This document shows, piece after piece, positions 1,689 to 39,968 of a stretch of 54,118 nt of DNA. Origin of the DNA: a virus (Duplodnaviria > Caudoviricetes); IMG/VR virus record IMGVR_UViG_3300046170_000018, positions 1 to 54,118 of that record, one strand, 5' to 3'. The notes beneath the pieces were generated by a model. The model did no database searches, was not told the DNA's origin, and saw nothing but the letters and a program-made list of their open reading frames with translations. The number at the start of each line of letters is the position of its first letter. The first letter of the stretch is position 1. The position numbers and the translations under genes were made by a program.

Positions 1689-4600
1689 ATGGCATCGTTA
1701 GATTTTAGTAGTGTCTTTGACGATGATGAAGATGAGGAGCAGAGACAGCAATCAACACCTGCGTCTGCTCCTTCTTCTGTTTCTAAGTTTGATGATGTGT
1801 TTAAAAATGATGAAGAAGAAGTACCTGTCGAGGTACTAGAAGAACCCGCAGAGCAAGATACAACCGCATCTAAGTTTGAGAGTGTATTTGATGATAGCGC
1901 AGACGTTTCTGTAGATGATCCTGTTGTAGAAACACCAGAAGAAACATTCGTGCGTACAGGTGAAGTACCTGAAAGGTACAGGTATGTACCTTCTGTGCCT
2001 ACAGGTGACGCAGAAGTTGATAGAGTAAAGCTAGAACCTATTGATGAGCCTACACCAACAGTGTCAGAACAAACTGACTCTGCGTTTAACTATGCCAGTA
2101 CTGCAAAAACAGCAGAAGAGTTGAGTAGTCTTGGCAGTGTAATACCAGAGGACTTTATAGATGAATCTATAGCAGAACCCTTCCAGCCTATTGTAGAATG
2201 GATTGGTAAAGCAGCGGGTAAAGACATTAGGAATCTTGCCGTAGCTATGGAATTTGTGTCTGATAGCACCGCCAATGTTGGAGTAGCCTTAACTAAAGGA
2301 TTAAAAGCTGTTGGAGTTCCTGTACCCTTTGAAGACAGAGTAGGCGGAGAGAAGTTTGCAGGTGATATGGGTATGATGTTGGAGATGATAGAGGCTGCAG
2401 TTCCGGGTGGTTCAGCGGCTATGCGTCCTGTAAGAAAACTATTTAGAGAAGCTAAACAAACAGCCAAGCTAAAAGCAAAGGGTGAGAAAGCCCGTGCTGA
2501 ACTACTTGACCGTAAGATGAATATTAATAAAGCCAAGGAAGCTACAGCAGAAGAGATAGCAGCTAAGACAACAAGGGCAGAACAGGTAGCTGCAGAAAAT
2601 GTAGACTTAAAAAATGAACTTATCTTAGGCTTTGAGGAACAGACAGGCAAGACTATCTCAACTGTAGTAGACGGTGTGCGTGTAGTTGATAATGAACTAG
2701 CACGTAAGGCAGGTAGAGAAACTGCTGAAGAGATAGATTTTAAAGATACTAGAAGTGAAACTGCTAAAGCATTAGGTATTAGTGATGTAGAGGCTGATGA
2801 TGCAGCTAAACTAGCTGGCGTTGGTGATACACTTACTGCACCTATACTCAAGCCAGAGAAGCTAGATGGTCTAGTTGCTGCAGCCGCCGACCTAAAGACT
2901 AAGTATCCTACAGCGTTTGATAATGATAAGACTGTAATTGATAACCTACTTGACCTGACCATCAATAAAGAATTAATAGCTGGTGATGAACTCATCGACA
3001 CACTGAACAAGTACAATGTATCCTTTGAGGATTACATCCTTACTGTTGTAGGCTCTGGCTCAGAGGCAGGTAAGGTACTCAACAAGCTGTCTCAGATTAA
3101 ACGTGCAAGGCCACTCAATGAGATGCAAGACTTGCAACGTGCAGCTACACAGGCACGTCAGGGTAACATACGTAATAACATCATGCGCTTAGAGGGTATA
3201 CGCCGTGGTGGTCTGGTGTCTCAGCTTGCTACTGCTGCACGTAACCTACAGTCTGCTGGCATTCGTTCACCTATGGATTCACTAGGTAACGTAATGGACA
3301 CTGCCTTGTACAAGCATGGGCGAAGCAAAGGGTGTAGGCGGTAAGGCTGCTGCTGGTGCTAAGTCTCTTATCAGTAAAGAAAACTGGAAAGATAGCTTTG
3401 CCAACATGAAGTATATGTTTGGCCCTGAAAGCAGACTAGATGCCAAAGATTATGTTGACTTTATCTTAGATAGACCTGAACTATCCAAGCAGTTTGACCT
3501 TATGTTCAATCAGCTTAATGAACTTCAGCAAGCAACAGGGCGTGGACAGGCAACTACTAAGCTAGGCAAGGGTGTAGACTACCGTGCTATCCGAACTTGA
3601 GGATGGTGTCAGTGTACTTAACAGTGCTAACCGCTGGCAAGAATACCTTGTAAGGCGAGGGTTCATTCCTTGGTGAATTGGAACGCCTTAGTTAAAGCGT
3701 GAGTATAAGATTGATCTTAATTGACACCCTTAATGAAGGCAAGATTAAAGACTTGCTGAACGACTCTACAACTGTTCGTCCTAAAGGTGCCTAGATCATT
3801 TAATGAGTTAGTAGCAGACGCAACTAATAAAGCACTAGATGTAACCTACGCAAAGCAGCCTGACATCGGTGTGTTCAGAGAAGCTACATCATTCATTACT
3901 CGTAATGGTTTGACTGTTGTAATGCCCTTCCCACGCTTTATGTTTAACTCAATGGAGTTGATGGGTAACTATGCGGGTGGAGTATCCATACCGTTATCAA
4001 AGAAAATTGCAAACATAGTAACTCGTGGTGAGGCATTCACAGAAATGGGTGGCCCTTTAAGTGCTAAAGACCGCCAGCGTATCTCACGTAACTTAGTGGG
4101 CATAGGTGCGGTTGGTGCAGCTTACATGGCTCGTACAAGTGACGATGCACCTGCAGATTATAAAGAAATTAGTGTAGGTGATGGTACAGTTATGGATACC
4201 ACACCACAGTTTCCTCTACGTCAGATGCTGTATTTAGGTGAGGCAACTAAGCGTATAAAGGATGGCACATTCGATGACTTCTTTAATGCAAGGGAGTTCT
4301 TTGAGACATTCTTAGGCACTAACATACGTACAGGTGTTGGTAACAGCATCGTAGATGAAGTTGTTCAACTAGCAGGTGATTCTGATTTGACTAGGGATGA
4401 AGCTGCAGCAAGGCGAGTAGGCCGTGCGCTAGGTAACTATCTATCTACGTGGGCTGTACCATTTGCACAAATAATTGATACTGAACGTGCGCTAGGTAGA
4501 CGTGGAGAAACATATAAGGACGTAGCGCAAGACCCTACACTAGCGTTTGGTTCTACGTTTGAGAAAGAAATTAAACGACCCTTTGAAGCTAGAGGACTGA

Positions 4601-5283
4601 TAGCAAGGGATGTGCGAATAAATAAAGATGGTACTGTAAATGAAAGAGATGCAGACCTAGACATAAATGAGGATGGTGTAATAACAGAAGATGAACAACC
4701 TAAACGTGAACGCTTATTCCAAGAGGAATCAAGTAGAGTAGGTTCAGCATTGAAGGTGGGGCTAGGTCTTACCCTGAGAACGCAGGATAGTGAAGAGGGT
4801 GAATATATTAAACGCCTTGGCTTAACTGAGTTTGAATTGGGTAGTACATCTAAAGTACCAAGTATACGTAGATTTGAGAATGCTCAATTGCGTGACATCA
4901 TACCCGGTATTGTGGCTGCAGCACAGGCGTATGAAGAAGAATCTCGTGAAGAGTATCGTGACAGTGAGGTGCTACAAGAACGTAACATGCTTGGTATAAA
5001 GAAAATGACGGAGCAAGAGTTTGTAAACAGTCGTATCAAACCTCTCATCACAACTCAGATTAAAGCCGCCAAAAGAAATCTGTCGGATGGTAAAAAAGTA
5101 AAAGCGGATGCACCTGTATACATAAAAGCAATGACAGCCTATCGTAGACTTCCATCTGATGTACGTGTAAATGCTGCATCGGAGTTCTTACTACGTGAAG
5201 GTAGGCCAGCAGACGGTGCTGACGTAGAAGATTTATCTAAATTAGTTGAGTATGGTAAGGCAGTAAGAGAAGCATACAAATAA
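1689..5283 (+). CDS. Large internal virion/ejection protein (~1200 aa), broken by probable sequencing frameshifts at ~3310-3345 and ~3580-3790
   Basis: ORFs 1689-3344, 3316-3600 and 3787-5283 are collinear with no RBS-like restarts. Acidic N-terminus. PFPRF motif typical of large podoviral ejection proteins. Last gene of the structural arm. Confidence 0.6.
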
Positions 5284-5313
5284 AAACAGGGGAACTAAAT
5301 CCCCTGCTCCTTT
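5282..5313. terminator. Intrinsic terminator at the convergence of the two arms, probably bidirectional
   Basis: CAGGGGA-ACTAAA-TCCCCTG stem (5287-5306), A5 on the left (U-tract for the minus strand) and CTCCTTT on the right. Confidence 0.75.
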
Positions 5314-18424: not shown

Positions 18425-18591
18425 CAGTCTTCCAACTCCTTCTGGAACTCAGTCCATGCGGCTTGGAATACCTCGTTAAAACTGTGGTAGTTGGCATCCT
18501 CAAAGGCAGCAGACGCTACCTCAAATATATCCTGCCCACTCCACTTGACTGCTTGTGATAACTGTATCCCTTTGATTTCATTATCAGTCAT
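18421..18591 (-). CDS. Hypothetical protein, 56 aa (MTDNEIKGIQLSQAVKWSG...)
   Basis: Read manually. GAAGGAG RBS, ATGA overlap with the upstream stop. Confidence 0.65.
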   Translation of the reverse strand: MTDNEIKGIQLSQAVKWSGQDIFEVASAAFEDANYHSFNEVFQAAWTEFQKELEDC

Positions 18592-19121
18592 TGTCTATTC
18601 TCCTTCATCCAATCGGGCATATCTCTGCCCTTGTTGTATCTAGCGAAACTCATCTTGTCTACTTTGTAGAACGCACGATAGGCTACGATAGGCCAATCCT
18701 CATCTGTCTTGCAGTCATCGTGTCCACTAAAGCATTGTGGGTGTGGTGTCATAAAGTTAGATACGTCAGGTATATATTGTTCTGCTTCAACTAGCGCATC
18801 AAAGTGACGCATAGACTTGTGACCTGTATTCACTGTGCGGTCATTGCGTATTGGGTAACGCCACATATACTCATCATTCATAGCCTTCATAAGACGTACA
18901 GCAAACCTATAGTTGATGCGTGTCTCTCTAGCCCATATAGTACATGGGTGGTTGGTGTAGGCTATCTTGTATAAGCCAGCTTCCTCTGCAAACTCAGGTG
19001 CATGGATACGCACGGCAGTGTTTAGCATCTGCGCTTCTTCCAATACCATCTTGCATATGTGCTGGTCACATAGCTGCTGGGCAATAGCCTCTGGCGTATT
19101 GTCAATGATAAACCTATTCAT
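18588..19121 (-). CDS. Pyrimidine-dimer DNA glycosylase/endonuclease V-like protein
   Basis: MNRF...CDQHICKMVLEEAQML...NHPCTIWAR...NY matches the Pyr_excise-like family. Start moved to 19121 (GAGG RBS). Confidence 0.75.
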   Translation of the reverse strand: MNRFIIDNTPEAIAQQLCDQHICKMVLEEAQMLNTAVRIHAPEFAEEAGLYKIAYTNHPCTIWARETRINYRFAVRLMKAMNDEYMWRYPIRNDRTVNTGHKSMRHFDALVEAEQYIPDVSNFMTPHPQCFSGHDDCKTDEDWPIVAYRAFYKVDKMSFARYNKGRDMPDWMKENRQ

Positions 19122-19122
19122 A

Positions 19123-19338
19123 TCAAAAATCCTCGACTTTTGTTTCAAACGCATCTTCGGCATATTTGGCCTCTTCAAACTTGGAACGTGTCGTGTAGTA
19201 TGCCATCATCGTAGCAGCCATCTCTGGATAATATTCCCAATCAGGTTTACCACCAGATTCAAATGAATATCCTATCTCTCTGTCAAGTGCTTCCAGTATG
19301 GCGTTGACTTGTTTCTTTGGTAGGTTAAGCGTCATCAT
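19123..19338 (-). CDS. Hypothetical protein
   Basis: ORF with GAAGGAGATTGACAATG start context. Confidence 0.7.
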   Translation of the reverse strand: MMTLNLPKKQVNAILEALDREIGYSFESGGKPDWEYYPEMAATMMAYYTTRSKFEEAKYAEDAFETKVEDF

Positions 19339-19340
19339 TG

Positions 19341-19574
19341 TCAATCTCCTTCATTCTCATAACACATATTGTCTATCAGATCAATGCGATCCTGATGTTG
19401 AGCCATCTTGTCTAGCTCAGACTGTACCGCTTCCATGATATCCGAATGCTCACCAATGCCAGCCGGATTGTTTAAGTATACAGCTATGTTGGTCTTGTGT
19501 AAGTTTACATTTCCAACAGCGTGTAGTCTCAGTGATGCTAGTAATTTACTAGGCTTTATTAATCTATCAAACAT
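19341..19574 (-). CDS. Conserved marine phage hypothetical protein (GIGEHSD motif)
   Basis: YLNNPAGIGEHSDIMEA motif. GGGAG RBS. Confidence 0.7.
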   Translation of the reverse strand: MFDRLIKPSKLLASLRLHAVGNVNLHKTNIAVYLNNPAGIGEHSDIMEAVQSELDKMAQHQDRIDLIDNMCYENEGD

Positions 19575-19758
19575 CGTCAATCTCCCATAGTTCGTCTACT
19601 TCTATGCCATCACAGACATATGAGTAGTCATAGTTAGGTATCTCAAACAGTTTTACACTGCCATCCTCATTGCGAATGTAATCATCCGCATCGTCATCCC
19701 ATACAGCTACAGGCATATCCCATACCAATACGCTATATGATTTATCTGGGTCAAACAT
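19567..19758 (-). CDS. Hypothetical acidic protein
   Basis: ORF with GGAGATTGACAATG start context. Confidence 0.65.
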   Translation of the reverse strand: MFDPDKSYSVLVWDMPVAVWDDDADDYIRNEDGSVKLFEIPNYDYSYVCDGIEVDELWEIDDV

Positions 19759-19770
19759 TGTCAATCTCCA

Positions 19771-19929
19771 TTACCGTTCCACAGGGTAGAATACTTCTAC
19801 CATGCTATCACACTTAGGGCAAGTCAGTATCGTGACCATACTAAACTCATCACCACGATGTTCATCAGGGTTGATGTCATAGTCTACGTTCCAGATTAGT
19901 TCTGTATCTTTACAGTGCCAACAGTTCAT
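19771..19929 (-). CDS. Small zinc-ribbon protein, 52 aa
   Basis: MNCWHC...LTCPKC. AAGGAG RBS. Read manually. Confidence 0.7.
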   Translation of the reverse strand: MNCWHCKDTELIWNVDYDINPDEHRGDEFSMVTILTCPKCDSMVEVFYPVER

Positions 19930-19930
19930 G

Positions 19931-20071
19931 TCATTTCTCCTTCAATGCATCTATTACTAGATAGATAAGTATAGCTGTACCAATAGCCAGATACCCAATG
20001 ATGAACAAATCATCTATGCCCACATCAGGCATCTGGTTTTGTAGGCACAGGATTGTGTTACAGTCAAGCAA
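19931..20071 (-). CDS. Small single-TM membrane protein, 46 aa (TTG start)
   Basis: GGAG RBS. Hydrophobic segment LFIIGYLAIGTAILIYLVI. Confidence 0.55.
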   Translation of the reverse strand: MLDCNTILCLQNQMPDVGIDDLFIIGYLAIGTAILIYLVIDALKEK

Positions 20072-20089
20072 TGTCAATTCTCCACTGCA

Positions 20090-20340
20090 TAAATTAATAG
20101 GGTAGGCAGTTTAACCACTTGCCTAGGTGTCTTCACACCAAAAGGTGAGGGGGTTGCACACTGACCATTTACACGAATTATTCTTCCACCCCTAAGTCAC
20201 GAGACCCTGTATTTATACTGTTAGGCCTTCAGTTCGCATGTCTAGGCAGTTTTCTATTGGCCTTTATCGCCGTGAAACTTCACCTAGTCACGCTTCCCTA
20301 GCTAGTCCTTCTTATTCAGACTGTCACTATGCTAGAGCAT
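20090..20340 (-). ncRNA. Candidate structured non-coding RNA region
   Basis: A ~250 nt gap in an otherwise gene-dense operon, with several stems and two copies of AAACTGCCTA. Confidence 0.3.
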
Positions 20341-20341
20341 A

Positions 20342-20521
20342 TTACGCAGTTTCAAACTCTTTGACAAACTCAAGTTCAATATGCTTGTCAGGATACAATG
20401 CTTGTGCCATGTCGAGTGCATGTTCTACCGCATGGTTCCAGATAGGTTGCTCCAAGGGCTGTGGGTGTACATTGTACACACCACTAACGCCATCCATTTT
20501 AATGCCAACTTCCCAATACAT
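20342..20521 (-). CDS. Hypothetical protein, 59 aa
   Basis: Read manually (MYWEVGIKMDG...). Directly follows the upstream stop. Confidence 0.6.
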   Translation of the reverse strand: MYWEVGIKMDGVSGVYNVHPQPLEQPIWNHAVEHALDMAQALYPDKHIELEFVKEFETA

Positions 20522-20522
20522 A

Positions 20523-20912
20523 TTATGCTACCTTCCTAATTGCTTTGCGGCCTTGCTTATTACGAGCAAGTTCACGCAGATTACTTACAGTAAACCCACC
20601 AATCTTGATGGAGACTACCTCATCACGGCTCTTACGCCGCACTGCTGCACCTAGTTCCTTGTGCATGCGGTCAAGAAAGATGCCAGCAATTGCCTCTGTC
20701 GTGTACTGTAAGTACCCGCCGCAGTCTTCCTTTGCATGCCGTGCAGCTTGCAGTGCAAGGTCATAGAACTTGTAACGACCAAGCTTCACGCCATGATACT
20801 CAGCATACAAGGCTTCTACTTTAGCAAGCTTTGCTTCTACTTGTGGTGATGCAAGCACTTGTCCTGTCTTGCCTGTTGAACGCTGGTGAAATGTTACAGT
20901 CTTTATAGCCAT
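20523..20912 (-). CDS. Hypothetical basic early protein
   Basis: 129 aa ORF with AAGGAG RBS. Confidence 0.75.
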   Translation of the reverse strand: MAIKTVTFHQRSTGKTGQVLASPQVEAKLAKVEALYAEYHGVKLGRYKFYDLALQAARHAKEDCGGYLQYTTEAIAGIFLDRMHKELGAAVRRKSRDEVVSIKIGGFTVSNLRELARNKQGRKAIRKVA

Positions 20913-20925
20913 GATATAATCTCCT

Positions 20926-21177
20926 TTAGTTGGTTAGTGTGTTAGTAGTTGAGGTTAGTCCAACATTGGACTTGATATGTCTTATGACATACTTGGCACG
21001 ATTGATAAACCACCGTGCTTGTTTTTGGTCATATGACATAACATGTTGTGCATCAGATAGGATAGACATAGCCAACATGCAAGGCATATCTTCGTGCAGC
21101 ATATCTTCCATGTCTAGTGGTGTGCAACCATACAAGTCTAAATACCTGCCATAAATTTCAGCATCATCATTACCCAT
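20926..21177 (-). CDS. Hypothetical protein
   Basis: 83 aa ORF with AGGAG RBS. Contains one palindrome copy (KSNVGL). Confidence 0.6.
   Translation of the reverse strand: MGNDDAEIYGRYLDLYGCTPLDMEDMLHEDMPCMLAMSILSDAQHVMSYDQKQARWFINRAKYVIRHIKSNVGLTSTTNTLTN
20957..20972. repeat. 16-bp palindrome AGTCCAACATTGGACT, copy 1 of 5
   Basis: Exact 7-2-7 inverted repeat. Confidence 0.95.
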
Positions 21178-21301
21178 AGATTTTCTCCTGAATCATGTGT
21201 TTAGTGCGAACCTGTGCTTTACGGGTACGCTTCCAGTCATCACGCTTTGCTTTGCGGGGTTTCACTTTCAGTGACTTCATTTTCTCTACTTTGATTTGCA
21301 T
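21170..21301 (-). CDS. Small highly basic protein, 43 aa
   Basis: Read manually: MQIKVEKMKSLKVKPRKAKRDDWKRTRKAQVR... Confidence 0.5.
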   Translation of the reverse strand: MQIKVEKMKSLKVKPRKAKRDDWKRTRKAQVRTKHMIQEKIYG

Positions 21302-21410
21302 TGTGTTTATCTTTCTTTCTGTTGTATTTGGTTTTGTCTGGCACTGCTTGTGTCCTGCGGCGTGACTGTGCCACTGCCTTCGCTACAGGGTTGATAGGTT
21401 TGATACGCAT
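21240..21410 (-). CDS. Small basic protein with ArfA-like pattern, 56 aa
   Basis: NPVAKAVAQSRRRTQAVPDKTKYNRKKDKH. AGGAG RBS. Confidence 0.6.
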   Translation of the reverse strand: MRIKPINPVAKAVAQSRRRTQAVPDKTKYNRKKDKHNANQSRENEVTESETPQSKA

Positions 21411-21421
21411 TGTCAATGCTC

Positions 21422-21511
21422 CTATGAAAGTGCGTACTGAATAATGTCTACAACTTGTGTGATAGCTAACACAAGAATAATGATATGACCTAAGTGAATT
21501 TTCTCATACAT
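21422..21511 (-). CDS. Hydrophobic 29-aa peptide
   Basis: CGGAG RBS. Sequence MYEKIHLGHIIILVLAITQVVDIIQYALS. Confidence 0.5.
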   Translation of the reverse strand: MYEKIHLGHIIILVLAITQVVDIIQYALS

Positions 21512-21525
21512 ATTAAATCTCCGTT

Positions 21526-21541
21526 AGTCCAACATTGGACT
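21526..21541. repeat. 16-bp palindrome, copy 2 of 5
   Basis: Exact AGTCCAACATTGGACT. Confidence 0.95.
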
Positions 21542-21547
21542 TGTCTA

Positions 21548-21610
21548 GTATATCTAAGTAAATATATTACTTTCACTAAAGTATCAAGTAATATTTTACA
21601 TAAGATATAC
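21548..21610. other. Long intergenic hairpin H1 with conserved loop
   Basis: ATATTACTT-[TCACTAAAGTATC]-AAGTAATAT plus outer GTATATCT/AGATATAC pairing. Confidence 0.8.
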
Positions 21611-21618
21611 ATAAGAGG

Positions 21619-22254
21619 TTAAGCGATACCATGCAGCTTTCGCCATGTAACCCATGTAATCGCCTGCAATTCATATGCTTTCAGCTTACGACCATTGACA
21701 CGGCAACGACTAGCAGCTTGGCGATAGGCATCTTGCAGATTGCGATACTCGACAATGCCAATATTGGTTTTGTTATCGGTCAGATTGACACGCTCATTGT
21801 ATGCAATGTTTCGGGCATGTCCATCTACGGTACAGGTATCATCACCCATGATGTTCTCATAGAAACAGACAATCTTCTTGCCATTAAGAATAGTCTTAAT
21901 GCTGTCATGGCTTGGTCTAATCTGCCCTAGTATCTGCCATGCCTTGTCTCGCATAGCATTGTAGGTGCAGACAGATACACTATCTACGCTACGACCATTG
22001 ACAAACGCATCAATCAAATCACGGGCATTTGTCACATTGGTAGACCAACGATTGTTAGGTGACAATGCCGCCACAACGCCAGCGGCAACATGAATAGAGA
22101 TGCCATAGGATTTGTATTGCTCCGCAAGTTGGCGGCACTCCTCGTATGCTTCGGCATACCATGCAATGCCATGTGCCACATCTTCAGGCTTTGCCTTGCG
22201 GCGCATAGCGATAATGTTTTTGATAGCGATTTGCATATTAAATTCGGTTTTCAT
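21619..22254 (-). CDS. Conserved phage protein with HhH-GPD glycosylase-like features
   Basis: WY..A, AALSP...W..N, K...FY.NI, TVDGH and LQAITW motifs. Confidence 0.55.
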   Translation of the reverse strand: MKTEFNMQIAIKNIIAMRRKAKPEDVAHGIAWYAEAYEECRQLAEQYKSYGISIHVAAGVVAALSPNNRWSTNVTNARDLIDAFVNGRSVDSVSVCTYNAMRDKAWQILGQIRPSHDSIKTILNGKKIVCFYENIMGDDTCTVDGHARNIAYNERVNLTDNKTNIGIVEYRNLQDAYRQAASRCRVNGRKLKAYELQAITWVTWRKLHGIA

Positions 22255-22258
22255 AGTG

Positions 22259-22486
22259 TTACTCCGTAAAAGGTGGTTCCATAGGGAACGTGGTTACAAT
22301 TTCAAAGTCATCAGTCATCCAGCGTATATCACTAGTCTGGACGGATTGCAAGCGCATTGAGCCACTAGGCCATGCTGGTGTCCTGTCAGGCAAAGGTATC
22401 ACCTGCCACAACTCACCATGCTCATTGACACGATTCTTGCCATGGCGGGTCTTACCCTGCAAGATAACGATTTTTCCTGTTTGCAT
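22259..22486 (-). CDS. Hypothetical protein, 75 aa (GKTRHGKNRVNEHG motif)
   Basis: GGAG RBS before the ATG at 22486. The longer 142-aa call overlaps the neighbouring gene. Confidence 0.65.
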   Translation of the reverse strand: MQTGKIVILQGKTRHGKNRVNEHGELWQVIPLPDRTPAWPSGSMRLQSVQTSDIRWMTDDFEIVTTFPMEPPFTE

Positions 22487-22763
22487 TTTGTTTCTCCACT
22501 TCGTGAATACAAGCCTGCAAATACCCCCAATGCCTTGGGCAATCAGGTGGATCACCCTCAAATGACATGACAGATGCTTCAGCATCATAGATGTTATAGT
22601 CAATGTCAAGCCTTGCTTGCTGATAGCCTTCATCATATTCAGCATAGTAAAAGGTTTCAGCATGACAAAAACCACAATAGTAATCATCCGAACTGTTCAC
22701 ATAGAACAGGTCAATATGAGTGTACGGTGTGTCACAACAAGCACATTTTCTAGCCATATTCAA
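22452..22763 (-). CDS. Hypothetical zinc-binding protein
   Basis: CACC...CGFC. CGGAG RBS. Confidence 0.65.
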   Translation of the reverse strand: MNMARKCACCDTPYTHIDLFYVNSSDDYYCGFCHAETFYYAEYDEGYQQARLDIDYNIYDAEASVMSFEGDPPDCPRHWGYLQACIHEVEKQNANRKNRYLAG

Positions 22764-22778
22764 ATCTCCGATTTGTTA

Positions 22779-22794
22779 AGTCCAACATTGGACT
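22779..22794. repeat. 16-bp palindrome, copy 3 of 5
   Basis: Exact AGTCCAACATTGGACT. Confidence 0.95.
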
Positions 22795-22803
22795 AGGTTA
22801 GTA

Positions 22804-22860
22804 GTGTATATAAGTAATAACACTATCACTAATGTTCTAGTGTTATTACGTTATTCACAC
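22804..22860. other. Long intergenic hairpin H2 with conserved loop
   Basis: GTAATAACACTA-[TCACTAATGTTC]-TAGTGTTATTAC, a perfect 12-bp stem. Confidence 0.85.
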
Positions 22861-23078
22861 TAAAGCAAGCTGTCAAGTATTGCCAAGGCATCAGCCTTGT
22901 CTTTTTCCTTGCGATAGGTATCCAGCATAGCATCCGCTTGACCTGTCACATAAACCCGAAACTCAGGCCGTGTCTCAGGCTCATAGCTACGGCTGAAAGC
23001 CAGTGTATCCATAGCTTTCCAACTAGAGCCTACGGCTTTGTGCCGACCCATGTCAATGATTGCACCACGTTTAGCCAT
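22860..23078 (-). CDS. Hypothetical early protein (MAKRGAIIDMG...)
   Basis: ACGGAG RBS before the ATG at 23078. Confidence 0.7.
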   Translation of the reverse strand: MAKRGAIIDMGRHKAVGSSWKAMDTLAFSRSYEPETRPEFRVYVTGQADAMLDTYRKEKDKADALAILDSLL

Positions 23079-23118
23079 GTTATTTACTCCGTAAATTGAG
23101 GGCATCTAGACTGCAGCA

Positions 23119-23721
23119 TTAAGCTGCAGCCTTTGTGTTAGCGGCATCAAGCATCTCAAGTTGCTCTTTCAGAGCCGCAAGGAATGATGCTTTTGAGATG
23201 CCATTCATCTCACAATCAAGCAAAGCTTGCATTGCAATGTCTGAAGCAGACTTTGGATCATTAGCCTTATCAGCTTCGCTGTCTAGTCCAACATTGGACT
23301 TGTCATCAGCCTTCGGCTCTACAGGTGTCTCTGTATCAGCCTTCGGCTTTGGATCAGCCTTTGGCTTCATGGCAGCTTGTAAAGCTGTAAGACTGGTAAA
23401 GCCCTTTTTGCTTTTAGCAATGAAGTCACGACAAGCTGTCTCATTCGCAGCAAACCACATGGCTTCGCTTCTACGGCGTTTGTCGATACCGGCAATGCCA
23501 CAATCTTTCAGCCTTGCTGAAGCGATACGATCACCGCCTTCAGCCTTCAGCTTTAGCATCAGCTTTCCAAGCCGTGTATCAAAGCCATCAGCCTTCGTTG
23601 ACTTGGTGAAACGAGCCTTATCACCTTTGGTGATTTGCTTCCATTCTTTAGCCAAGGCAAAGCCTTCAGCTTCCAGAGTGTTGTTTACAACAGGGACGAT
23701 TTGAGTTGATGAATTTTCCAT
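23119..23721 (-). CDS. First gene of the early arm, Lys/Ala-rich hypothetical protein
   Basis: 200 aa with AAGGA RBS. PK-repeat linker. Contains one palindrome copy. Confidence 0.75.
   Translation of the reverse strand: MENSSTQIVPVVNNTLEAEGFALAKEWKQITKGDKARFTKSTKADGFDTRLGKLMLKLKAEGGDRIASARLKDCGIAGIDKRRRSEAMWFAANETACRDFIAKSKKGFTSLTALQAAMKPKADPKPKADTETPVEPKADDKSNVGLDSEADKANDPKSASDIAMQALLDCEMNGISKASFLAALKEQLEMLDAANTKAAA
23285..23300. repeat. 16-bp palindrome, copy 4 of 5 (inside a CDS)
   Basis: Exact AGTCCAACATTGGACT. Confidence 0.95.
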
Positions 23722-23737
23722 TTCGGCTTCCTTTATA

Positions 23738-23815
23738 CTATCTTTAGGTTTTATAGGGAGATATCCCCTTTCACTACGTTCAAGGGGTATATCCCGTAAA
23801 ACCGTAAGAAGATAG
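23738..23815. other. Long hairpin H3 with conserved loop, upstream of the first early gene
   Basis: GGTTTTATAGGGAGATATCCCCTT-[TCACTACGTTC]-AAGGGGTATATCCCGTAAAACC plus outer CTATCTT/AAGATAG pairing. Confidence 0.8.
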
Positions 23816-23984
23816 ATATAAGTTTGAGGTTGAAGCCTCGCCTGCGATCCTCTGCGCCTGCCGTTTCGCCTGCGGTTGCAGCTATCTTCGATAGCGAAAC
23901 TCGTGCGCTAAACTCGTGACACATAGCGAGGCTTGGCAGATTGTGGTGGCTGGTATGACTATCACCTTCAGTGATAGGGGGTGT

Positions 23985-24000
23985 AGTCCAACATTGGACT
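23985..24000. repeat. 16-bp palindrome, copy 5 of 5
   Basis: Exact AGTCCAACATTGGACT. Confidence 0.95.
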
Positions 24001-24344
24001 TATGGTTCACCTTTGGTGAAAGGATTAGATGCATCAACCTTACAACTTGTTGTAAATCTGTAGGTCTGGCCTTCACAAATCATCTTTCAGATGGCAACTG
24101 ATACCATAACAGTTGTTCCAACTGGGTTTGGTTGGTCAACTACTGCATATTCTATGCAATATCAAGGGCTTGCTTGGCTATCTGCCTCTAATCCTGCGCT
24201 TGGTTGCGCATAATGCTGGCGCACACACGCCTTAGAGAGGGGGCAGGCAGGAGCCAGCCGGGGGTGGGGGCGTTATATGTATGTAGAAATACACAGATCA
24301 GGTAAATTCACTGTTAACCACACTAACAACTGACACTATGTACA

Positions 24345-24380
24345 TGCACAAGCATTGTGCAACTGCCTAAAAAATAGGCA
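24345..24380. promoter_or_regulatory. Two tandem 17-bp TGC-N11-GCA palindromes (NtrC-box-like)
   Basis: TGCACAAGCATTGTGCA (24345-24361) and TGCCTAAAAAATAGGCA (24364-24380). Confidence 0.5.
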
Positions 24381-24427
24381 ACTGTAGATACCCCTATGGA
24401 CCATTTCGCCTATTCATAATAAATGAC

Positions 24428-24456
24428 TTGACAAGCTATGAAAAATCTGCTATAAT
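24428..24456 (+). promoter_or_regulatory. Perfect-consensus sigma70 promoter driving the plus arm
   Basis: TTGACA-17 nt-TATAAT. Confidence 0.85.
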
Positions 24457-24462
24457 TATATA

Positions 24463-24580
24463 TAACTTAAACACACTTAAAGTGTTTCACTTAACTACTA
24501 TATAGTTAAATTATAAATACACTTAAATGTATTATATATTTTCTTTGTTAACTCACTTAACTATAACACTTTAAATGTAC
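24463..24580 (+). repeat. AT-rich tract with CACTTAA short repeats
   Basis: CACTTAA at 24474, 24488, 24520 and 24554. CACTTTAA at 24567. Confidence 0.7.
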
Positions 24581-24625
24581 CCTCTATAAATTAATATTTG
24601 TGCTTATTAAAGAAAGTTCTTGACA

Positions 24626-24841
24626 ATGGCGAAGAAATCTGTAAAACTATATACAGATAACGTACTTGATGCATTCTATGATGCTATCCGTACTAACTCA
24701 TTAGACCGTCTTCACATACCACACAGTGATGTGTTTTATGTGCGTAATGCATTGGATACTAAATTCTTTCCACGTACCTTTACACTTAAACAAACAGAAG
24801 ATTACATGCGTATGGAAGGATGGACTGAAAGAAATGAGTGA
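24626..24841 (+). CDS. Hypothetical protein
   Basis: First ORF of the plus arm. LHIPHSDVFYVR motif. Confidence 0.65.
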   Translation: MAKKSVKLYTDNVLDAFYDAIRTNSLDRLHIPHSDVFYVRNALDTKFFPRTFTLKQTEDYMRMEGWTERNE

Positions 24842-25056
24842 TGGAACTCTATACCTTTTTTGTATTCTTCTCCGTGATCGTAATGCCAGACGGAGAAATT
24901 AAATCATTCTCTAAGCATGTGATAGAGTGTCCTGCTATGGAGACTGTATTGGAAATGCATGAGCCTAAGATGGATAGCGGTGAGATTGTAGACTGGTCAG
25001 CTACGTGCCTGACAACTCAGCTACCATTAAAAATACCACAAGGACTGAAGACGTAA
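24838..25056 (+). CDS. Hypothetical protein with N-terminal hydrophobic segment
   Basis: 72 aa with two Cys, overlapping the upstream stop. Confidence 0.6.
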   Translation: MMELYTFFVFFSVIVMPDGEIKSFSKHVIECPAMETVLEMHEPKMDSGEIVDWSATCLTTQLPLKIPQGLKT

Positions 25057-25057
25057 C

Positions 25058-25351
25058 ATGGCTATACCTGAAAGAGTTAAAACCAAGATGAAGGAAGAAG
25101 GCTTGACTGGCGTTAATAAGCCAAAGCGTACTCCTAGTCACAAAACCAAGTCACACTGCGTAATGGCTAAAGAAGGTGACACATATAAATTTATTCGCTT
25201 TGGACAGCAAGGCGTTTCCGGTGCTGGTAAGTCTCCTAAGACTGCTAAAGATAAAGCACGTAAGAAATCATACTACGCACGTCACGATGCGCAGGGTAAG
25301 CCGACCAGCAAGCTGTCAGCGAAGTATTGGTCACATAAAGTTAAATGGTAG
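25058..25351 (+). CDS. Small basic protein (DUF5754-like)
   Basis: IRFGQQG...RKKSYYARH...SAKYWS...W. Confidence 0.65.
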   Translation: MAIPERVKTKMKEEGLTGVNKPKRTPSHKTKSHCVMAKEGDTYKFIRFGQQGVSGAGKSPKTAKDKARKKSYYARHDAQGKPTSKLSAKYWSHKVKW

Positions 25352-25367
25352 TATAGGAGATATACCG

Positions 25368-25796
25368 ATGGCAAGTAAGCTATTAAAGGCAGCAGCAAAG
25401 AAAGCTAAAGATGCAGCTATCGCAGCAGCTAAAGCTAAGAAGGCTAAAGAGCTAAAGGCTAATCAAAAGAAGCCTATCAATGAGTTGATGAGTAAAGCAC
25501 CTGCAGCACAGGCTGAGTCTGGTATGGGTACAGCAAGTAAGACACGTATTACTTCTGGAGAACGTGGTAAGGCAATGGCTGGCGCAAAGCGTGAATACAA
25601 GGCTACCTTGAATAAACTAGACAAAGACCCTAATCTATCAGATGAGCAAATGGAAATTATGCTTGGCAAACTAAAAGATTTGGAAAAGCGGTACGGTGCT
25701 GGTGTTAAACCTACCGCCGATATGAATCGTGGTGGCATGGCTACCAAAAACTATGTGAACCCAGTTAAGATTGTAGACAATAGAAAGAAACGATAA
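25368..25796 (+). CDS. Lys/Ala-rich basic protein with C-terminal MNRGGM and KNYVNPV motifs
   Basis: AGGAG RBS before the ATG at 25368. Confidence 0.75.
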   Translation: MASKLLKAAAKKAKDAAIAAAKAKKAKELKANQKKPINELMSKAPAAQAESGMGTASKTRITSGERGKAMAGAKREYKATLNKLDKDPNLSDEQMEIMLGKLKDLEKRYGAGVKPTADMNRGGMATKNYVNPVKIVDNRKKR

Positions 25797-26194
25797 TGGC
25801 TAAACCAACCTCAAAGAAAGCAGCAATGGATGATGCAGTTAAGGGCATGAACATGAAACAGCTAACCGAAAAGATGGCTGACCCTAAAACGCCAGCACCT
25901 ATCAAAGCTGCAGCTAAACGCAGACTAGACCGTATCTCTGGTGCCGATAAGACTGCCCCTCTATCACAAATGGCTAAAGGCGGCAAGGCTACTAAGAAAG
26001 TACCTGTAATCTCTATTGGTGTAGGCATGGCTGAAATGCCTAAAGGTAAAGACAAAGCTAAGATGATGCGTGGTGGTATGTCAGGTGGTAAGGAACATAT
26101 GTATGCAGCAGGTGGTATGGTTAAAGACAACCCCGGCCTAAAGGCACTAAAAGCTGCAAGCCCAGAAGCTTACAATAAAATCACTAAGTCATAA
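25796..26194 (+). CDS. Basic protein with three xxGG motifs
   Basis: TAATG coupling. MAKGG, MMRGG and YAAGG motifs. Confidence 0.75.
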   Translation: MAKPTSKKAAMDDAVKGMNMKQLTEKMADPKTPAPIKAAAKRRLDRISGADKTAPLSQMAKGGKATKKVPVISIGVGMAEMPKGKDKAKMMRGGMSGGKEHMYAAGGMVKDNPGLKALKAASPEAYNKITKS

Positions 26195-39251: not shown

Positions 39252-39968
39252 ATGACGACTTTTATTAATCTGACTAATGAACTATTGCGTAGATTGAACG
39301 AAGTTCAAACAGATGAGTCTAGTTTTGCTAGTGCTAAAAATGTACAAGCACTAGCTAAAGATGCAATTAATTCTGCCGTCAGGCAAATGCTTCAAGACGC
39401 ACAAGAGTGGCCTTTTACTTTAGTAACTTACGAGCAAACACTAGTTGCTGGCACTGGCACGTATTCCTTTCCTGCAGATTATTCAAAAGCAGACTGGGAT
39501 ACTTTTTATATTAAACAACTTTCGTCAAAAAATAACACACCTAAAAAATTAAAATTAATTACCTACGATCAGTATTTATCTAAATATAGAAGCACTGAAG
39601 AGTTAGCAGGAGAAAACGGAAGAACTGACCCTGACTACGTTTATATGACGCAAGATACAAAGTTCGGTATTACTCCTGTTCCTGACGCAGCGTATGTAAT
39701 CGAGTACAGGTATTGGAAATATCCTGCTGATCTTGTATTATATGATGATACCGTAATCATACCCGACAGATTTAAGCATGTAATTATTGATGGTGCTATG
39801 ATGTATATGATGCTATTTAGGTCAAATGAACAAAGCGCAAATATGCACAGTACAAAGTTTGAAGATGGTATAAAAATGATGCGTAGATTAATTATAGATC
39901 AACATACTAATGTTATTTCTACAGTAATACAAAGGTCTAGCAACAGCGTAAGTGTTGATAGAATTTAA
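39252..39968 (+). CDS. Head-tail adaptor/tail tubular protein A
   Basis: LTNELLRRLNE, WPF, PVPD..Y and IPDRF motifs. Confidence 0.7.
   Translation: MTTFINLTNELLRRLNEVQTDESSFASAKNVQALAKDAINSAVRQMLQDAQEWPFTLVTYEQTLVAGTGTYSFPADYSKADWDTFYIKQLSSKNNTPKKLKLITYDQYLSKYRSTEELAGENGRTDPDYVYMTQDTKFGITPVPDAAYVIEYRYWKYPADLVLYDDTVIIPDRFKHVIIDGAMMYMMLFRSNEQSANMHSTKFEDGIKMMRRLIIDQHTNVISTVIQRSSNSVSVDRI

What the first reader, a model, noticed from the sequence alone, without database searches (positions are those of the whole stretch)
21548..23815. Three long hairpins with unrelated stems but a conserved apical loop
Seen: H1 (21548-21610), H2 (22804-22860) and H3 (23738-23815) have different stem sequences, but their loops are TCACTAAAGTATC, TCACTAATGTTC and TCACTACGTTC. 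On the sense (minus) strand these read GA(T)AC-N3/4-GTGA, which can fold as tandem G-A pairs, an AC/GT pair step and a 3-4 nt loop (C-GTA-G in H3). Each sits just upstream of an early gene. Different stems with a fixed loop indicate selection on structure. Known: GNA triloops and sheared GA pairs typify ssDNA hairpins (N4 promoters, plasmid ssi sites), and T7 uses intergenic hairpins as RNase III sites in its early mRNA. Inference: an undescribed cruciform/ssDNA signal, or an RNA processing or antitermination element.
Basis: partly seen in the sequence, partly recalled or inferred. Interest (0 to 1): 0.8.

Follow-up and report, generated by a model that had tools for sequence, protein, structure and literature searches.

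The report
Conserved capped hairpins between phage early genes
Three long hairpins with a shared, purine-capped tip sit between the first early genes of an abundant marine phage type, are kept by compensating mutations across many relatives, match no catalogued RNA family, and most likely punctuate the early messenger RNA.

Summary
The window is an HMO-2011-type marine podophage. H1, H2 and H3 fold far better than shuffles (z -4.5, -6.2, -4.5). A covariance model built from relatives finds exactly these three sites in the window, all on the gene-sense strand. Homologous hairpins occur in phage HMO-2011 (3), roseophage CRP-1 (1) and dozens of IMG/VR contigs. Stems change by double, compensating substitutions. 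The tip keeps CTT-GA-[A-T, C-G or T-A]-loop of 3-5-GA-AAG.

They are not intrinsic terminators, since there is no T run. They give no consistent sigma-70 promoter reading, and they are not in Rfam. G·U pairs are almost absent and show no strand bias, so RNA versus DNA function stays open.

Best reading (0.4): intercistronic hairpins of the early polycistronic mRNA that act as processing or stability punctuation, like T7 RNase III sites, with a specifically recognised tip. Main rival (0.25): single-strand or cruciform DNA signals of the N4 kind.

H1 and H2 are each followed by an exact 16-nt palindrome, present five times. It behaves like the binding site of a sequence-specific protein.

The parts
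21544..21616 (-). H1: long AT-rich hairpin. It has an 8-bp outer stem, a 3x2 internal loop and a 14-bp inner stem with one bulge. Tip at 21573-21585.
   Evidence: CM hit 21563-21595 at E 2.3e-6; 13 distinct ortholog sequences with 8 of 21 pairs showing double changes
22802..22862 (-). H2: hairpin with a perfect 12-bp inner stem. Tip at 22826-22837. The stop codon TAG of the 81-aa upstream gene lies in its 5' base.
   Evidence: CM hit 22816-22847 at E 6.2e-6; 13 distinct ortholog sequences with 7 of 17 pairs showing double changes
23732..23821 (-). H3: longest hairpin (about 34 pairs) and richer in G+C. Tip at 23771-23781. It ends just before the AAGGAAG ribosome site and the ATG (23721) of the first early gene.
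   Evidence: CM hit 23761-23791 at E 1.4e-3; 7 distinct ortholog sequences with 8 of 36 pairs showing double changes
21526..21541 (.). 16-nt palindrome 6 nt downstream of H1. It is followed by GGAG and the ATG at 21511.
22779..22794 (.). 16-nt palindrome about 8 nt downstream of H2. It is followed by GGAG and the ATG at 22757.
20957..20972 (.). 16-nt palindrome with no capped hairpin. It overlaps the end of the 83-aa ORF, upstream of the 129-aa gene.
23285..23300 (.). 16-nt palindrome inside the coding sequence of the first early gene, where it encodes KSNVG. It is kept in most relatives and changes together with the intergenic copies.
23985..24000 (.). 16-nt palindrome in the conserved non-coding leader, flanked by two small covarying hairpins.
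23119..23721 (-). First early gene (200 aa). It has a conserved helical N-domain, a disordered linker that carries the palindrome, and a C-terminal helical hairpin. It is a candidate binder of the 16-mer; this is a weak lead only.

Best explanation
H1-H3 are cis-acting hairpins of the leftward early polycistronic mRNA of an HMO-2011-type phage. Each is a 25-34 bp, nearly perfect duplex with conserved bulges. Its cap is a small module: two sheared G·A pairs, a 2-3 bp mini-helix and a 3-5 nt loop.

I propose that they punctuate the transcript into three parts: leader | genes A-B | genes C-D-E | the rest. The long duplex would be a substrate for a double-strand-specific nuclease (host RNase III) and/or a barrier to exonucleases. 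That would give segments with their own stability and free ribosome sites, as the intercistronic RNase III sites do in T7 early mRNA. The conserved cap would be a recognition or nucleation module for a protein that is conserved across hosts or encoded by the phage.

Shown: the structure, its conservation by compensatory change, its strand and position, and the absence of terminator, promoter and Rfam signatures.

Inferred: that the RNA rather than the DNA is the active form, that cleavage or protection occurs, and the identity of any partner.
For: Position and strand:
- All three hairpins lie in intercistronic or 5'-UTR positions of one operon, co-oriented with the genes.
- In 31 loci oriented by the first early gene, 49 of 53 model matches at E<=1 are on the gene strand. 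The other 4 (E 0.35) are the reverse reading of the same sites.

Stems kept by double substitutions:
- H1 orthologs: 8 of 21 pairs with double changes and 0 one-sided changes.
- H2 orthologs: 7 of 17. H3 orthologs: 8 of 36.
- Pooled inner stem: 85% paired against 64.8% in shuffles, 43 double-change cells against 17, 0 of 500 shuffles as high, and slid controls at most 57%. The same holds on 25 distinct model hits.

Tip:
- The tip is asymmetric and only pairs on the sense strand. G, A ... T, G, A are invariant in 22 of 22 seed sequences.
- The mini-helix covaries AC/GT to AT/AT.
- The sense fold is more stable than the antisense fold in 25 of 33 full hairpins.

Length and other signatures:
- 25-34 bp with an internal loop fits RNase III substrates (recalled knowledge of T7 R sites).
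- There is no T run after any hairpin, while the operon ends with a canonical terminator at 5282-5311.
- The family occurs in phages of different host orders: HMO-2011 on SAR116 has 3, CRP-1 on Roseobacter has 1.
Against: - G·U pairs are nearly absent: 0 of 273 cells in A1, 5 of 221 in A2, 0 of 252 in A3, 1 of 220 in A5.
- Arm mismatches show no sense bias: G·T 17 against A·C 26, flanks included. Strict Watson-Crick upkeep is what a DNA hairpin or cruciform, or palindrome-templated correction, would give.
- RNase III needs no conserved loop, so the cap is not explained by cleavage alone.
- More distant relatives keep a long hairpin before the first gene but with a fully paired tip, TCAC-TTTAGG-GTGA. 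The G·A cap is therefore clade-specific.
- No transcript ends are available. The only RNA data are metatranscriptome contigs of relatives, which cannot show starts, ends or strand.
- The seed sequences were collected with a filter that required flanking pairs, so the pairing percentages of the inner 6-10 bp are partly circular. The outer-stem covariation in A1 and A3 is not affected.
Confidence: 0.4

Rival explanations
1. The hairpins act as DNA. They would be extruded from supercoiled DNA, or form on a transiently single strand, and the capped sense-strand hairpin would be read by a structure-specific enzyme. Candidates are a hairpin promoter of the N4 kind, a priming or replication signal of the ssi, ssoA or Frpo kind, or a recombinase or nuclease site.
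For: - Stems are kept as strict Watson-Crick palindromes with almost no G·U and no strand bias.
- Many changes are A-T to T-A swaps that cannot pass through a wobble intermediate.
- The arms are AT-rich (G+C 0.18-0.25 for H1 and H2).
- The tandem G·A sits in a T-GA-A context, which I recall as favouring sheared pairs in DNA.
- N4 has three early promoters. In them the variable stem bases matter only for pairing, and the loop holds a sheared G:A (passages of PMC4496689).
- The three sites here cluster in the first 2.3 kb of the early operon.
Against: - No RNA polymerase was found. Pfam and PHROGs give nothing on the large unannotated ORFs, and the Atlas look-up of the 882-aa ORF gave no family. 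A DxDxD motif scan gave a single weak match and no DxDGD-type site. These are absences, not proof.
- N4 hairpins have 5-7 bp stems and 3-nt loops on the template strand. Here the stems are 25-34 bp and the purine cap is on the non-template strand.
- An 11-13 nt spacer disfavours cruciform extrusion (inference).
- All copies are co-oriented with transcription. A symmetric cruciform signal would not require that.
Confidence: 0.25
2. The hairpins are RNA landing sites for a regulatory protein. This could be processive antitermination of the nut/boxB or put kind, or translational control of the gene that follows. Processing sites would not be involved.
For: - The cap is conserved while the stem varies, which is the usual signature of a protein-recognised hairpin.
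- Each hairpin precedes a ribosome site by 10-50 nt.
- The roughly 600-nt untranslated leader holds a C-rich, G-poor tract around 24235-24270 that could load Rho (inference).
- All copies are in the sense orientation.
Against: - No candidate RNA-binding protein was identified. Nine of the 10 early proteins scanned have no significant match with a known function in Pfam, PHROGs or NCBIfam (DUF7178 and DUF7230 name no function). The tenth, 18588-19178, matches Pyr_excise in Pfam (E 2e-6) and a PHROG annotated 'DNA binding protein' (E 2.8e-36).
- No boxA-like partner was looked for.
- The stems are far longer than a binding hairpin needs.
- The copy number varies from 1 to 3 between complete relatives.
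Confidence: 0.15
3. The hairpin, the 16-mer and the ribosome site together form a composite regulatory cassette like the PeSLs of T4-type phages. It would combine an attenuator stem-loop with an early promoter, and its repeats would also serve as recombination points that shuffle small early genes.
For: - PeSLs are intergenic, early, end in a Shine-Dalgarno sequence, and often have the stem-loop between or over the promoter boxes (passages of PMC2839356; abstract of PMC4122927).
- TTGA(A/T)A at the tip resembles a -35 box, and several relatives have TATAAC 16-18 nt downstream.
- The scan tool lists GTGAAA-18-TATACT in H1.
- Directly after the H1 cassette, relatives carry three different first genes: MYEK..., MDVKIYK... 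and M(I/R)(R/K)xINPVA.... The cassette is therefore an indel junction.
Against: - No promoter reading fits all three. Spacers to the best -10-like hexamer range from 13 to 22 nt. The key last T of the -10 box is usually missing (TATAAC, TATCAC, TATTTA, TACTTA, TATAAA). H2 and H3 fail with the tip as -35 (my reading).
- Exceptions to TTGA (CTAGA, ACTGA) are compensated on the 3' side, which argues for pairing and not for a -35 box.
- Promoter-like sites in the region are at chance level: 24 found against 20.6 expected.
Confidence: 0.1

Closest known systems
RNase III processing sites of the T7 early region (R0.3-R1.3)
   Same: Long imperfect hairpins with an internal loop, between cistrons of a podophage early polycistronic transcript. 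They have no T run and occur in several copies in the first kilobases.
   Different: The anatomy of the T7 sites is recalled and was not compared here. The T7 sites are not known to me to share a selected apical motif. Cleavage is untested here, and the stems here avoid G·U.
Phage N4 early promoters (DNA hairpins read by the virion RNA polymerase)
   Same: Three copies at the start of the early region. The stem bases are free as long as they pair, the loop is conserved, and the tip holds a sheared G:A (PMC4496689, passages seen).
   Different: N4 has 5-7 bp stems and a 3-nt loop on the template strand, and it needs a 3,500-aa virion polymerase. Here the stems are 25-34 bp, the cap is 11-13 nt on the non-template strand, and no polymerase gene was found.
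PeSL cassettes of T4-type phages
   Same: Repeated intergenic early cassettes with a stem-loop and a Shine-Dalgarno sequence at the 3' end, associated with gain and loss of small genes (PMC2839356).
   Different: PeSLs carry a consensus sigma-70 promoter and G/C-rich terminator-like stems. Here there is no consistent promoter, the stems are AT-rich, the cap is conserved, and a separate 16-nt palindrome follows.
Lambda boxB (nut) and HK022 put RNAs
   Same: Hairpins in early transcripts whose tip is recognised. A purine-rich loop with a sheared G·A (recalled).
   Different: boxB is a 5-bp stem with a pentaloop next to boxA. Neither was found or tested here, and the copy number and stem length differ.
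Kink-turn / U4 5' stem-loop type caps
   Same: Tandem G·A pairs followed by a 2-bp helix and a small loop (recalled anatomy).
   Different: The defining 3-nt bulge before the G·A pairs is absent. The three bases 5' of GA pair with the three bases 3' of the second GA in 22 of 22 sequences (columns 8-10 with 24-26).

Membership tests
Intrinsic (Rho-independent) terminator | G+C-rich stem-loop followed at once by a run of T/U | tested here: not met
   None of H1-H3 is listed by the terminator scan. The sequences after the stems are TAGACAAG, CTAACCTAG and AAGGAAGCC. A canonical terminator does exist at 5282-5311.
T7-type RNase III site | About 20 bp or more of duplex with an internal loop, in an intercistronic position of a polycistronic early RNA | tested here: met
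   25-34 pairs with conserved bulges or internal loops; positions between ORFs
T7-type RNase III site | Cleaved by RNase III in vivo or in vitro | not testable with these tools
   Only metatranscriptome contigs were available. Contigs show no ends.
N4-type hairpin promoter | Phage-encoded, virion-carried single-subunit RNA polymerase | tested here: inconclusive
   No polymerase family in Pfam or PHROGs on the 10 largest or unannotated ORFs. The Atlas gave no family for the 882-aa ORF. Four large ORFs remain without any fold.
N4-type hairpin promoter | 5-7 bp stem and 3-nt loop on the template strand, conserved from -17 to +1 | tested here: not met
   The stems are 25-34 bp and the cap is 11-13 nt. 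The purine motif lies on the non-template strand. N4 features are taken from PMC4496689.
PeSL cassette | Consensus sigma-70 early promoter within the cassette | tested here: not met
   No hexamer pair with consistent spacing. The last T of the -10 box is mostly absent (reading). Only H1 is flagged, at 9 of 12, and the region as a whole is at chance level.
PeSL cassette | Intergenic stem-loop plus a Shine-Dalgarno sequence, at junctions of variable small genes | tested here: met
   (three alternative first genes after the H1 cassette)
Any Rfam 15 family | Match at or near the gathering score | tested here: not met
   In window 19000-26000 at E<=5 there were only three noise matches of 18-21 bits, against gathering scores of 50-70.
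Kink-turn | 3-nt bulge 5' of the tandem G·A pairs | tested here: not met
   The closing three pairs are Watson-Crick in 22 of 22 sequences, which leaves no bulge.

The most novel reading that the evidence does not exclude
The capped hairpins are single-strand DNA signals. They would be extruded from the incoming or replicating genome and read on one strand by an enzyme not yet recognised in HMO-2011-type phages, either a structure-specific promoter or a priming site. That would extend the N4 strategy to one of the most abundant phage groups in the sea, with a much larger hairpin and a new cap.
Probability: 0.2. Interest if true: 0.85.

Novelty: new variant of a known kind. Interest (0 to 1): 0.55.

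Why it matters
HMO-2011-type phages infect SAR116, Roseobacter and related bacteria, and the papers I saw describe them as a widespread marine group (PMC9038755, PMC6918029). How they run their early programme is not described there. Text searches of both papers returned no mention of hairpins, stem-loops, palindromes or promoters.

A hairpin family with a selected cap, coupled to an invariant palindrome, gives two concrete cis elements. With them the early regulation of isolates that can be grown (HMO-2011, CRP-1) becomes testable.

If the hairpins turn out to act as DNA, they would be a second, independent case of structure-read signals in a podophage. If they act as RNA, they add a defined, easily modelled motif for annotating marine viromes.

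Tried and rejected
- **Sigma-70 promoter readings.** I tried the tip 5' half TTGA(A/T)A as -35, the tip 3' half (G/A)TGAAA or TAGTGA as -35, and various -10-like hexamers in the 3' arm. All were rejected for inconsistent spacing (13-22 nt) and the missing last T of the -10 box.
- **T7/T3-like promoter.** The + strand loop of H1 contains TCACTAAAG, which I recall as the core of the T3 promoter. I rejected this because the direction is antisense to the genes, the other loops differ (TCATAT, TCATTA, TCACAA) and no T7-like polymerase was found.
- **Start codon or leader peptide at (A/G)TG in the loop.** Rejected because A/G changes together with its pairing partner T/C and no ribosome site precedes it.
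- **MFE scan of the whole window**. It was uninformative, since almost every 100-nt window folds below -17 kcal/mol. A gapless dyad scan found only H2 and one site at 39323-39359.
- **Hidden RNA polymerase.** Nothing was found.
- **Metatranscriptomes.** 8 runs hold small shares of the stretch. Laying 4 of them gave short contigs of relatives over the region, some ending near the hairpins. No contig bridges a hairpin with 31 nt on both sides, and contigs cannot show ends or strand, so no conclusion was drawn.
- **Fold of the first early protein.** Mean pLDDT was 74.5. Foldseek found nothing at E<=0.001. The best VIA-align match was the KorB DNA-binding domain at Z 5.0, rmsd 3.6 and 86 residues, not clearly above the unrelated rows. 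This is a lead only.
- **Other searches.** PDB sequence search gave 0 hits. NCBIfam gave no significant match on 10 early proteins; one sub-threshold row at E 0.026 was disregarded.
- **Other ideas considered from memory and dropped:** integron attC, IHF, DnaA, CtrA, LexA and parS boxes, CRISPR-repeat mimicry, kissing loops. No defining feature of any of them is present.
- **Earlier notes of this scan:** none exist for this genome.
Full report
**What the window is.** The window is a 54,118-base IMG/VR virus record. Its region 22930-24830 is 75% identical to the ends of Puniceispirillum phage HMO-2011, and a part is 84% identical to Roseobacter phage CRP-1. Pfam finds the family A DNA polymerase with a DnaJ-type zinc insertion, a DnaB-like helicase and a class II ribonucleotide reductase. 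PHROGs finds an integrase and a primase. Genes from about 24000 down to 5369 run on the minus strand, and genes from 24620 on run on the plus strand. Between the two sets lies a non-coding stretch with a perfect plus-strand sigma-70 consensus, TTGACA-17-TATAAT with TG, at 24428-24456. The finding lies at the very start of the leftward, early-looking operon.

**The observation.**
- The three inverted repeats are real and sit where stated.
- As sense-strand RNA they fold at -19.8, -26.0 and -32.6 kcal/mol, with z -4.5, -6.2 and -4.5. No shuffle out of 200 does as well. With DNA parameters z is -4.2, -5.5 and -4.0.
- H3 is longer than reported, 23732-23821.
- The three loops are exactly as quoted.
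- The loop pattern alone is not enriched: 7 found against 9.4 expected. What stands out is the loop on top of a long stem.

- An exact 16-mer, AGTCCAACATTGGACT on the plus strand, occurs five times between 20957 and 24000 and nowhere else. The expectation is 0.05.
- On the sense strand the order is: stop codon, hairpin, 6-9 nt, 16-mer, GGAG, ATG. This holds for H1 (ATG 21511) and H2 (ATG 22757). H3 abuts the ribosome site of the first gene (ATG 23721).
- The hairpins therefore divide the transcript into leader | genes A, B | genes C, D, E (E = DUF7178) | the rest.

**Relatives.**
- The 16-mer occurs in 80 IMG/VR stretches, 33 of them with two or more copies. Single copies could be chance in a collection of that size; this is my estimate, not a tool result.
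- Upstream of many of these copies lie hairpins with the same tip but other stems.
- I aligned positional orthologs. For H1, 13 distinct sequences gave 21 predicted pairs, 8 with double changes and none with a one-sided change. For H2, 13 sequences gave 17 pairs, 7 with double changes and one pair GC:10/GU:3. For H3, 7 sequences gave 36 pairs, 8 with double changes.
- In H1 the outer stem is almost invariant, with one T-A to C-G switch in 4 of 13. The roughly 10 bp under the tip are hypervariable but always paired.
- On 22 pooled tips plus inner stems, 85.0% of cells pair against 64.8 +/- 2.5% in shuffles. There are 43 double-change cells against 17.0 +/- 2.8, 0 of 500 shuffles reach the observed values, and sliding the partner by 1-3 columns gives at most 57%.
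- Caveat: these 22 sequences were gathered with filters that required pairs next to the loop, so the inner pairs are partly ascertained. The outer-stem covariation is not affected.

**Covariance model.**
- Model R1 gave 53 matches at E<=1 in 783,227 bases of the window, two isolates and 80 loci. The window has exactly three, all on the minus strand.
- In a second set, 31 loci fetched with the first early protein and oriented by it, there were again 53 matches. 49 are on the gene strand, 47 of them at E<0.01. The other 4, at E 0.35, are the reverse reading of four of those sites.
- 25 of the 31 loci have at least one match at E<0.01, and 6 have none.
- Whole records: HMO-2011 has 3, CRP-1 has 1, one complete IMG/VR genome has 1, and two other records have 0.
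- In CRP-1 the hairpin carries the same loop as H1, other stems and a palindrome 21 nt downstream. It precedes the DUF7178 gene instead of following it.

**Anatomy of the tip.**
- G, A ... T, G, A are invariant in the 22 seeds. The three closing pairs are CTT/AAG in 18 of 22 sequences. In the other four a closing pair is changed on both sides: CTA/TAG in two and ACT/AGT in two.
- Between the two GA steps lies a mini-helix. Its first pair is always A-T. Its second pair is C-G in loops of the type GA(N)AC...GTGA and T-A in loops of the type GAAT...ATGA. Two loop types have a G·T, in the third pair of GAATGTTATATGA and the second pair of GATATTCAGTGA. The remaining loop is 3-5 nt and free (GTA, GTAA, TTTA, ATTA, TTA ...) (rows with gap characters came from alignment files read by mistake and are ignored).
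- That fold exists only on the sense strand. The antisense strand would have T·C/C·T there. In line with this, the sense fold is more stable in 25 of 33 full hairpins: H1 13 of 13, H2 10 of 13, H3 2 of 7. These sequences are related, so the counts are not independent.
- The cap is not universal. At the H3 position, more distant relatives (42-64% protein identity) keep a long hairpin just before the first gene, but with a fully paired tip such as TCAC-TTTAGG-GTGA or TCAC-TTTTT-GTGA. The long hairpin is the older feature, and the G·A cap is a clade-level elaboration that shares the TTTAG...GTGA core.

**What the hairpins are not.**
- *Not intrinsic terminators.* No T run follows, and the scans do not list them. 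The operon's end carries a textbook terminator at 5282-5311.
- *Not a catalogued RNA.* The Rfam search of 19000-26000 at E<=5 gave three noise matches.
- *No consistent sigma-70 promoter.* The tip's TTGA(A/T)A looks like a -35 box, and some relatives have TATAAC 16-18 nt downstream. However, H2 and H3 fail and spacers vary from 13 to 22 nt. The last T of the -10 hexamer is usually absent. The exceptions to TTGA are compensated on the other arm. Promoter-like sites in the region are at chance level, 24 against 20.6.
- *Not a kink-turn.* The 3-nt bulge is missing.

- G·U pairs are 0 of 273, 5 of 221, 0 of 252 and 1 of 220 cells in the four alignments.
- In a direct arm-against-arm comparison, flanks included, G·T is 17 and A·C is 26, against 969 Watson-Crick pairs.
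- Many double changes are A-T to T-A swaps.

This fits selection on DNA pairing. It fits equally a DNA-level mutational route (arm-to-arm templated correction or recombination of the inner stem) feeding an element selected as RNA. For RNA speak the strict co-orientation with transcription, the intercistronic and 5'-UTR placement, the sense-only cap and the general prior for such elements. For DNA speak the strict palindromy and the likeness in logic to N4 early promoters: three copies, free stem bases, a conserved loop and a sheared G:A (passages of PMC4496689). I found no polymerase that could read such a signal, but four large late ORFs have no assignable fold. Metatranscriptome contigs of relatives overlap the region but cannot show ends or strand.

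**Mechanism I commit to (0.4).** The hairpins are RNA punctuation of the early polycistronic message. They would be substrates of a double-strand-specific nuclease and/or barriers to exonucleases, which uncouple the stability and translation of the segments, as T7's early RNase III sites do. The cap would be a specifically recognised or fold-nucleating module. The steps from 'conserved structure' to 'RNA', 'cleavage' and 'partner' are inference.

Rivals:
- A one-strand DNA signal (0.25).
- A protein-binding regulatory RNA for antitermination or translation (0.15).
- A PeSL-like promoter/attenuator and recombination cassette (0.1). PeSL anatomy is taken from passages of PMC2839356 and the abstract of PMC4122927.

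In favour of a PeSL-like evolutionary role, whatever the molecular one, relatives carry three different first genes directly after the H1 cassette.

**The 16-mer.**
- Its core is GTCCAA-NN-TTGGAC. Across the loci the centre is CA/TG (179), CG (32) or CC (10).
- HMO-2011 uses GTCCGACAGCGGAC at all five of its sites.
- The asymmetric centre points either way relative to the genes. HMO-2011 site 1 differs from sites 2 and 3, and the site after H2 in L022 is flipped.
- One copy lies inside the first early gene and encodes KSNVG. In a relative whose intergenic sites read GTCCGATGTCGGAC, the in-gene copy reads the same and the peptide becomes VSDVG.
- Uniform sites within a genome, a coordinated A-T to G-C switch between genomes, and indifference to the centre's orientation together indicate a sequence-specific dimeric binding protein, that is an operator-like site, rather than a free-standing hairpin.
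- A candidate binder is the first early protein. It has a conserved helical N-domain, a disordered linker and a C-terminal helical hairpin. Its best structural match is the KorB DNA-binding domain on operator DNA, but only at Z 5.0 (rmsd 3.6, 86 residues), which is not above background for helical proteins. This is a lead, not a finding.

**Prior description.** I found none.
- Full-text searches for HMO-2011 with promoter and for HMO-2011-type with RNA polymerase returned nothing relevant. A search for at least two of HMO-2011, hairpin, stem-loop, inverted repeat and palindrome showed no HMO-2011 paper among the 10 rows listed.
- Term look-ups inside PMC6918029 and PMC9038755 gave zero occurrences of hairpin, stem-loop and promoter; palindrome and inverted repeat were looked up only in PMC9038755, also with zero occurrences.
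- The original HMO-2011 paper is not held, and supplements were closed.

**Verdict.** This is a real, selected and apparently undescribed structured element family in an abundant marine phage group. Its kind is most likely familiar (early-operon punctuation hairpins). Its conserved G·A-capped tip, its strict Watson-Crick upkeep and its coupling to an invariant palindrome are unusual, and RNA versus DNA action is still to be decided at the bench.

Noticed in passing
window 20957-20972, 21526-21541, 22779-22794, 23285-23300, 23985-24000: An exact 16-nt palindrome is present five times against 0.05 expected. It is found in many HMO-2011-type contigs. One copy lies inside the first early gene (peptide KSNVG) and changes together with the intergenic copies in relatives. 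HMO-2011 uses a G-C variant at all its sites. It looks like the operator of a dimeric phage protein.
   Followed up: partly
window 23822-24420 (minus strand): A non-coding leader of about 600 nt lies upstream of H3. In 12 relatives it has blocks that are invariant or nearly so: TGTGGTTAACA, CCTNATCTGTGT, CTGTTATGGTATCAGTTGCCAT, GATGCAT and TGCAGTCACA..GGAAACGGCA..GCAGAGGAT. It also has a C-rich tract at about 24235-24270 and small covarying hairpins on both sides of the 16-mer. There is no Rfam match. It may be a structured RNA or an origin-like region.
   Followed up: partly
window 24428-24456 (+): A perfect sigma-70 consensus promoter (TTGACA, 17 nt, TG, TATAAT) points into the rightward operon. 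It sits back to back with a weak leftward candidate, TTTTCA-17-TATTAT, at 24444-24416.
   Followed up: no
window 19336-19349, 19572-19585, 19756-19769 (also near 21410 and 20070): The translation-start motif GGAGATTGAC(A/G)ATG is repeated in front of several small early genes. A TTGACA sits between the ribosome site and the start codon.
   Followed up: no
window 5282-5311 (minus strand): A canonical intrinsic terminator (12 pairs, then TTTTTATTTGT) closes the leftward operon. Its loop is TTTAGT, the same core as the hairpin tips.
   Followed up: no
window 23119-23721 (minus strand): The first early protein (200 aa) has no family in Pfam, PHROGs, NCBIfam or PDB sequence searches. Its model has mean pLDDT 74.5. 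The best structural match is the KorB DNA-binding domain at Z 5.0, which is weak. Its linker is low-complexity (KPKADPKPKAD).
   Followed up: partly
window 50833-53481, 73-1686, 1689-3344, 3787-5283 (+): Four consecutive large late ORFs (882, 537, 551 and 498 aa) have no match in Pfam or PHROGs. The Atlas model of the 882-aa protein is poor (pLDDT 0.42). They are probably internal or ejected virion proteins. A cryptic enzyme is not excluded.
   Followed up: partly
L012, L032, L036, L040, L057, L059 (IMG/VR loci): A second phage group shares the exact 16-mer in front of genes with a GAAAGGA-type ribosome site. One of its sites is preceded by a different long hairpin with the loop GGCTCTCTCCCTAGCT.
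   Followed up: no
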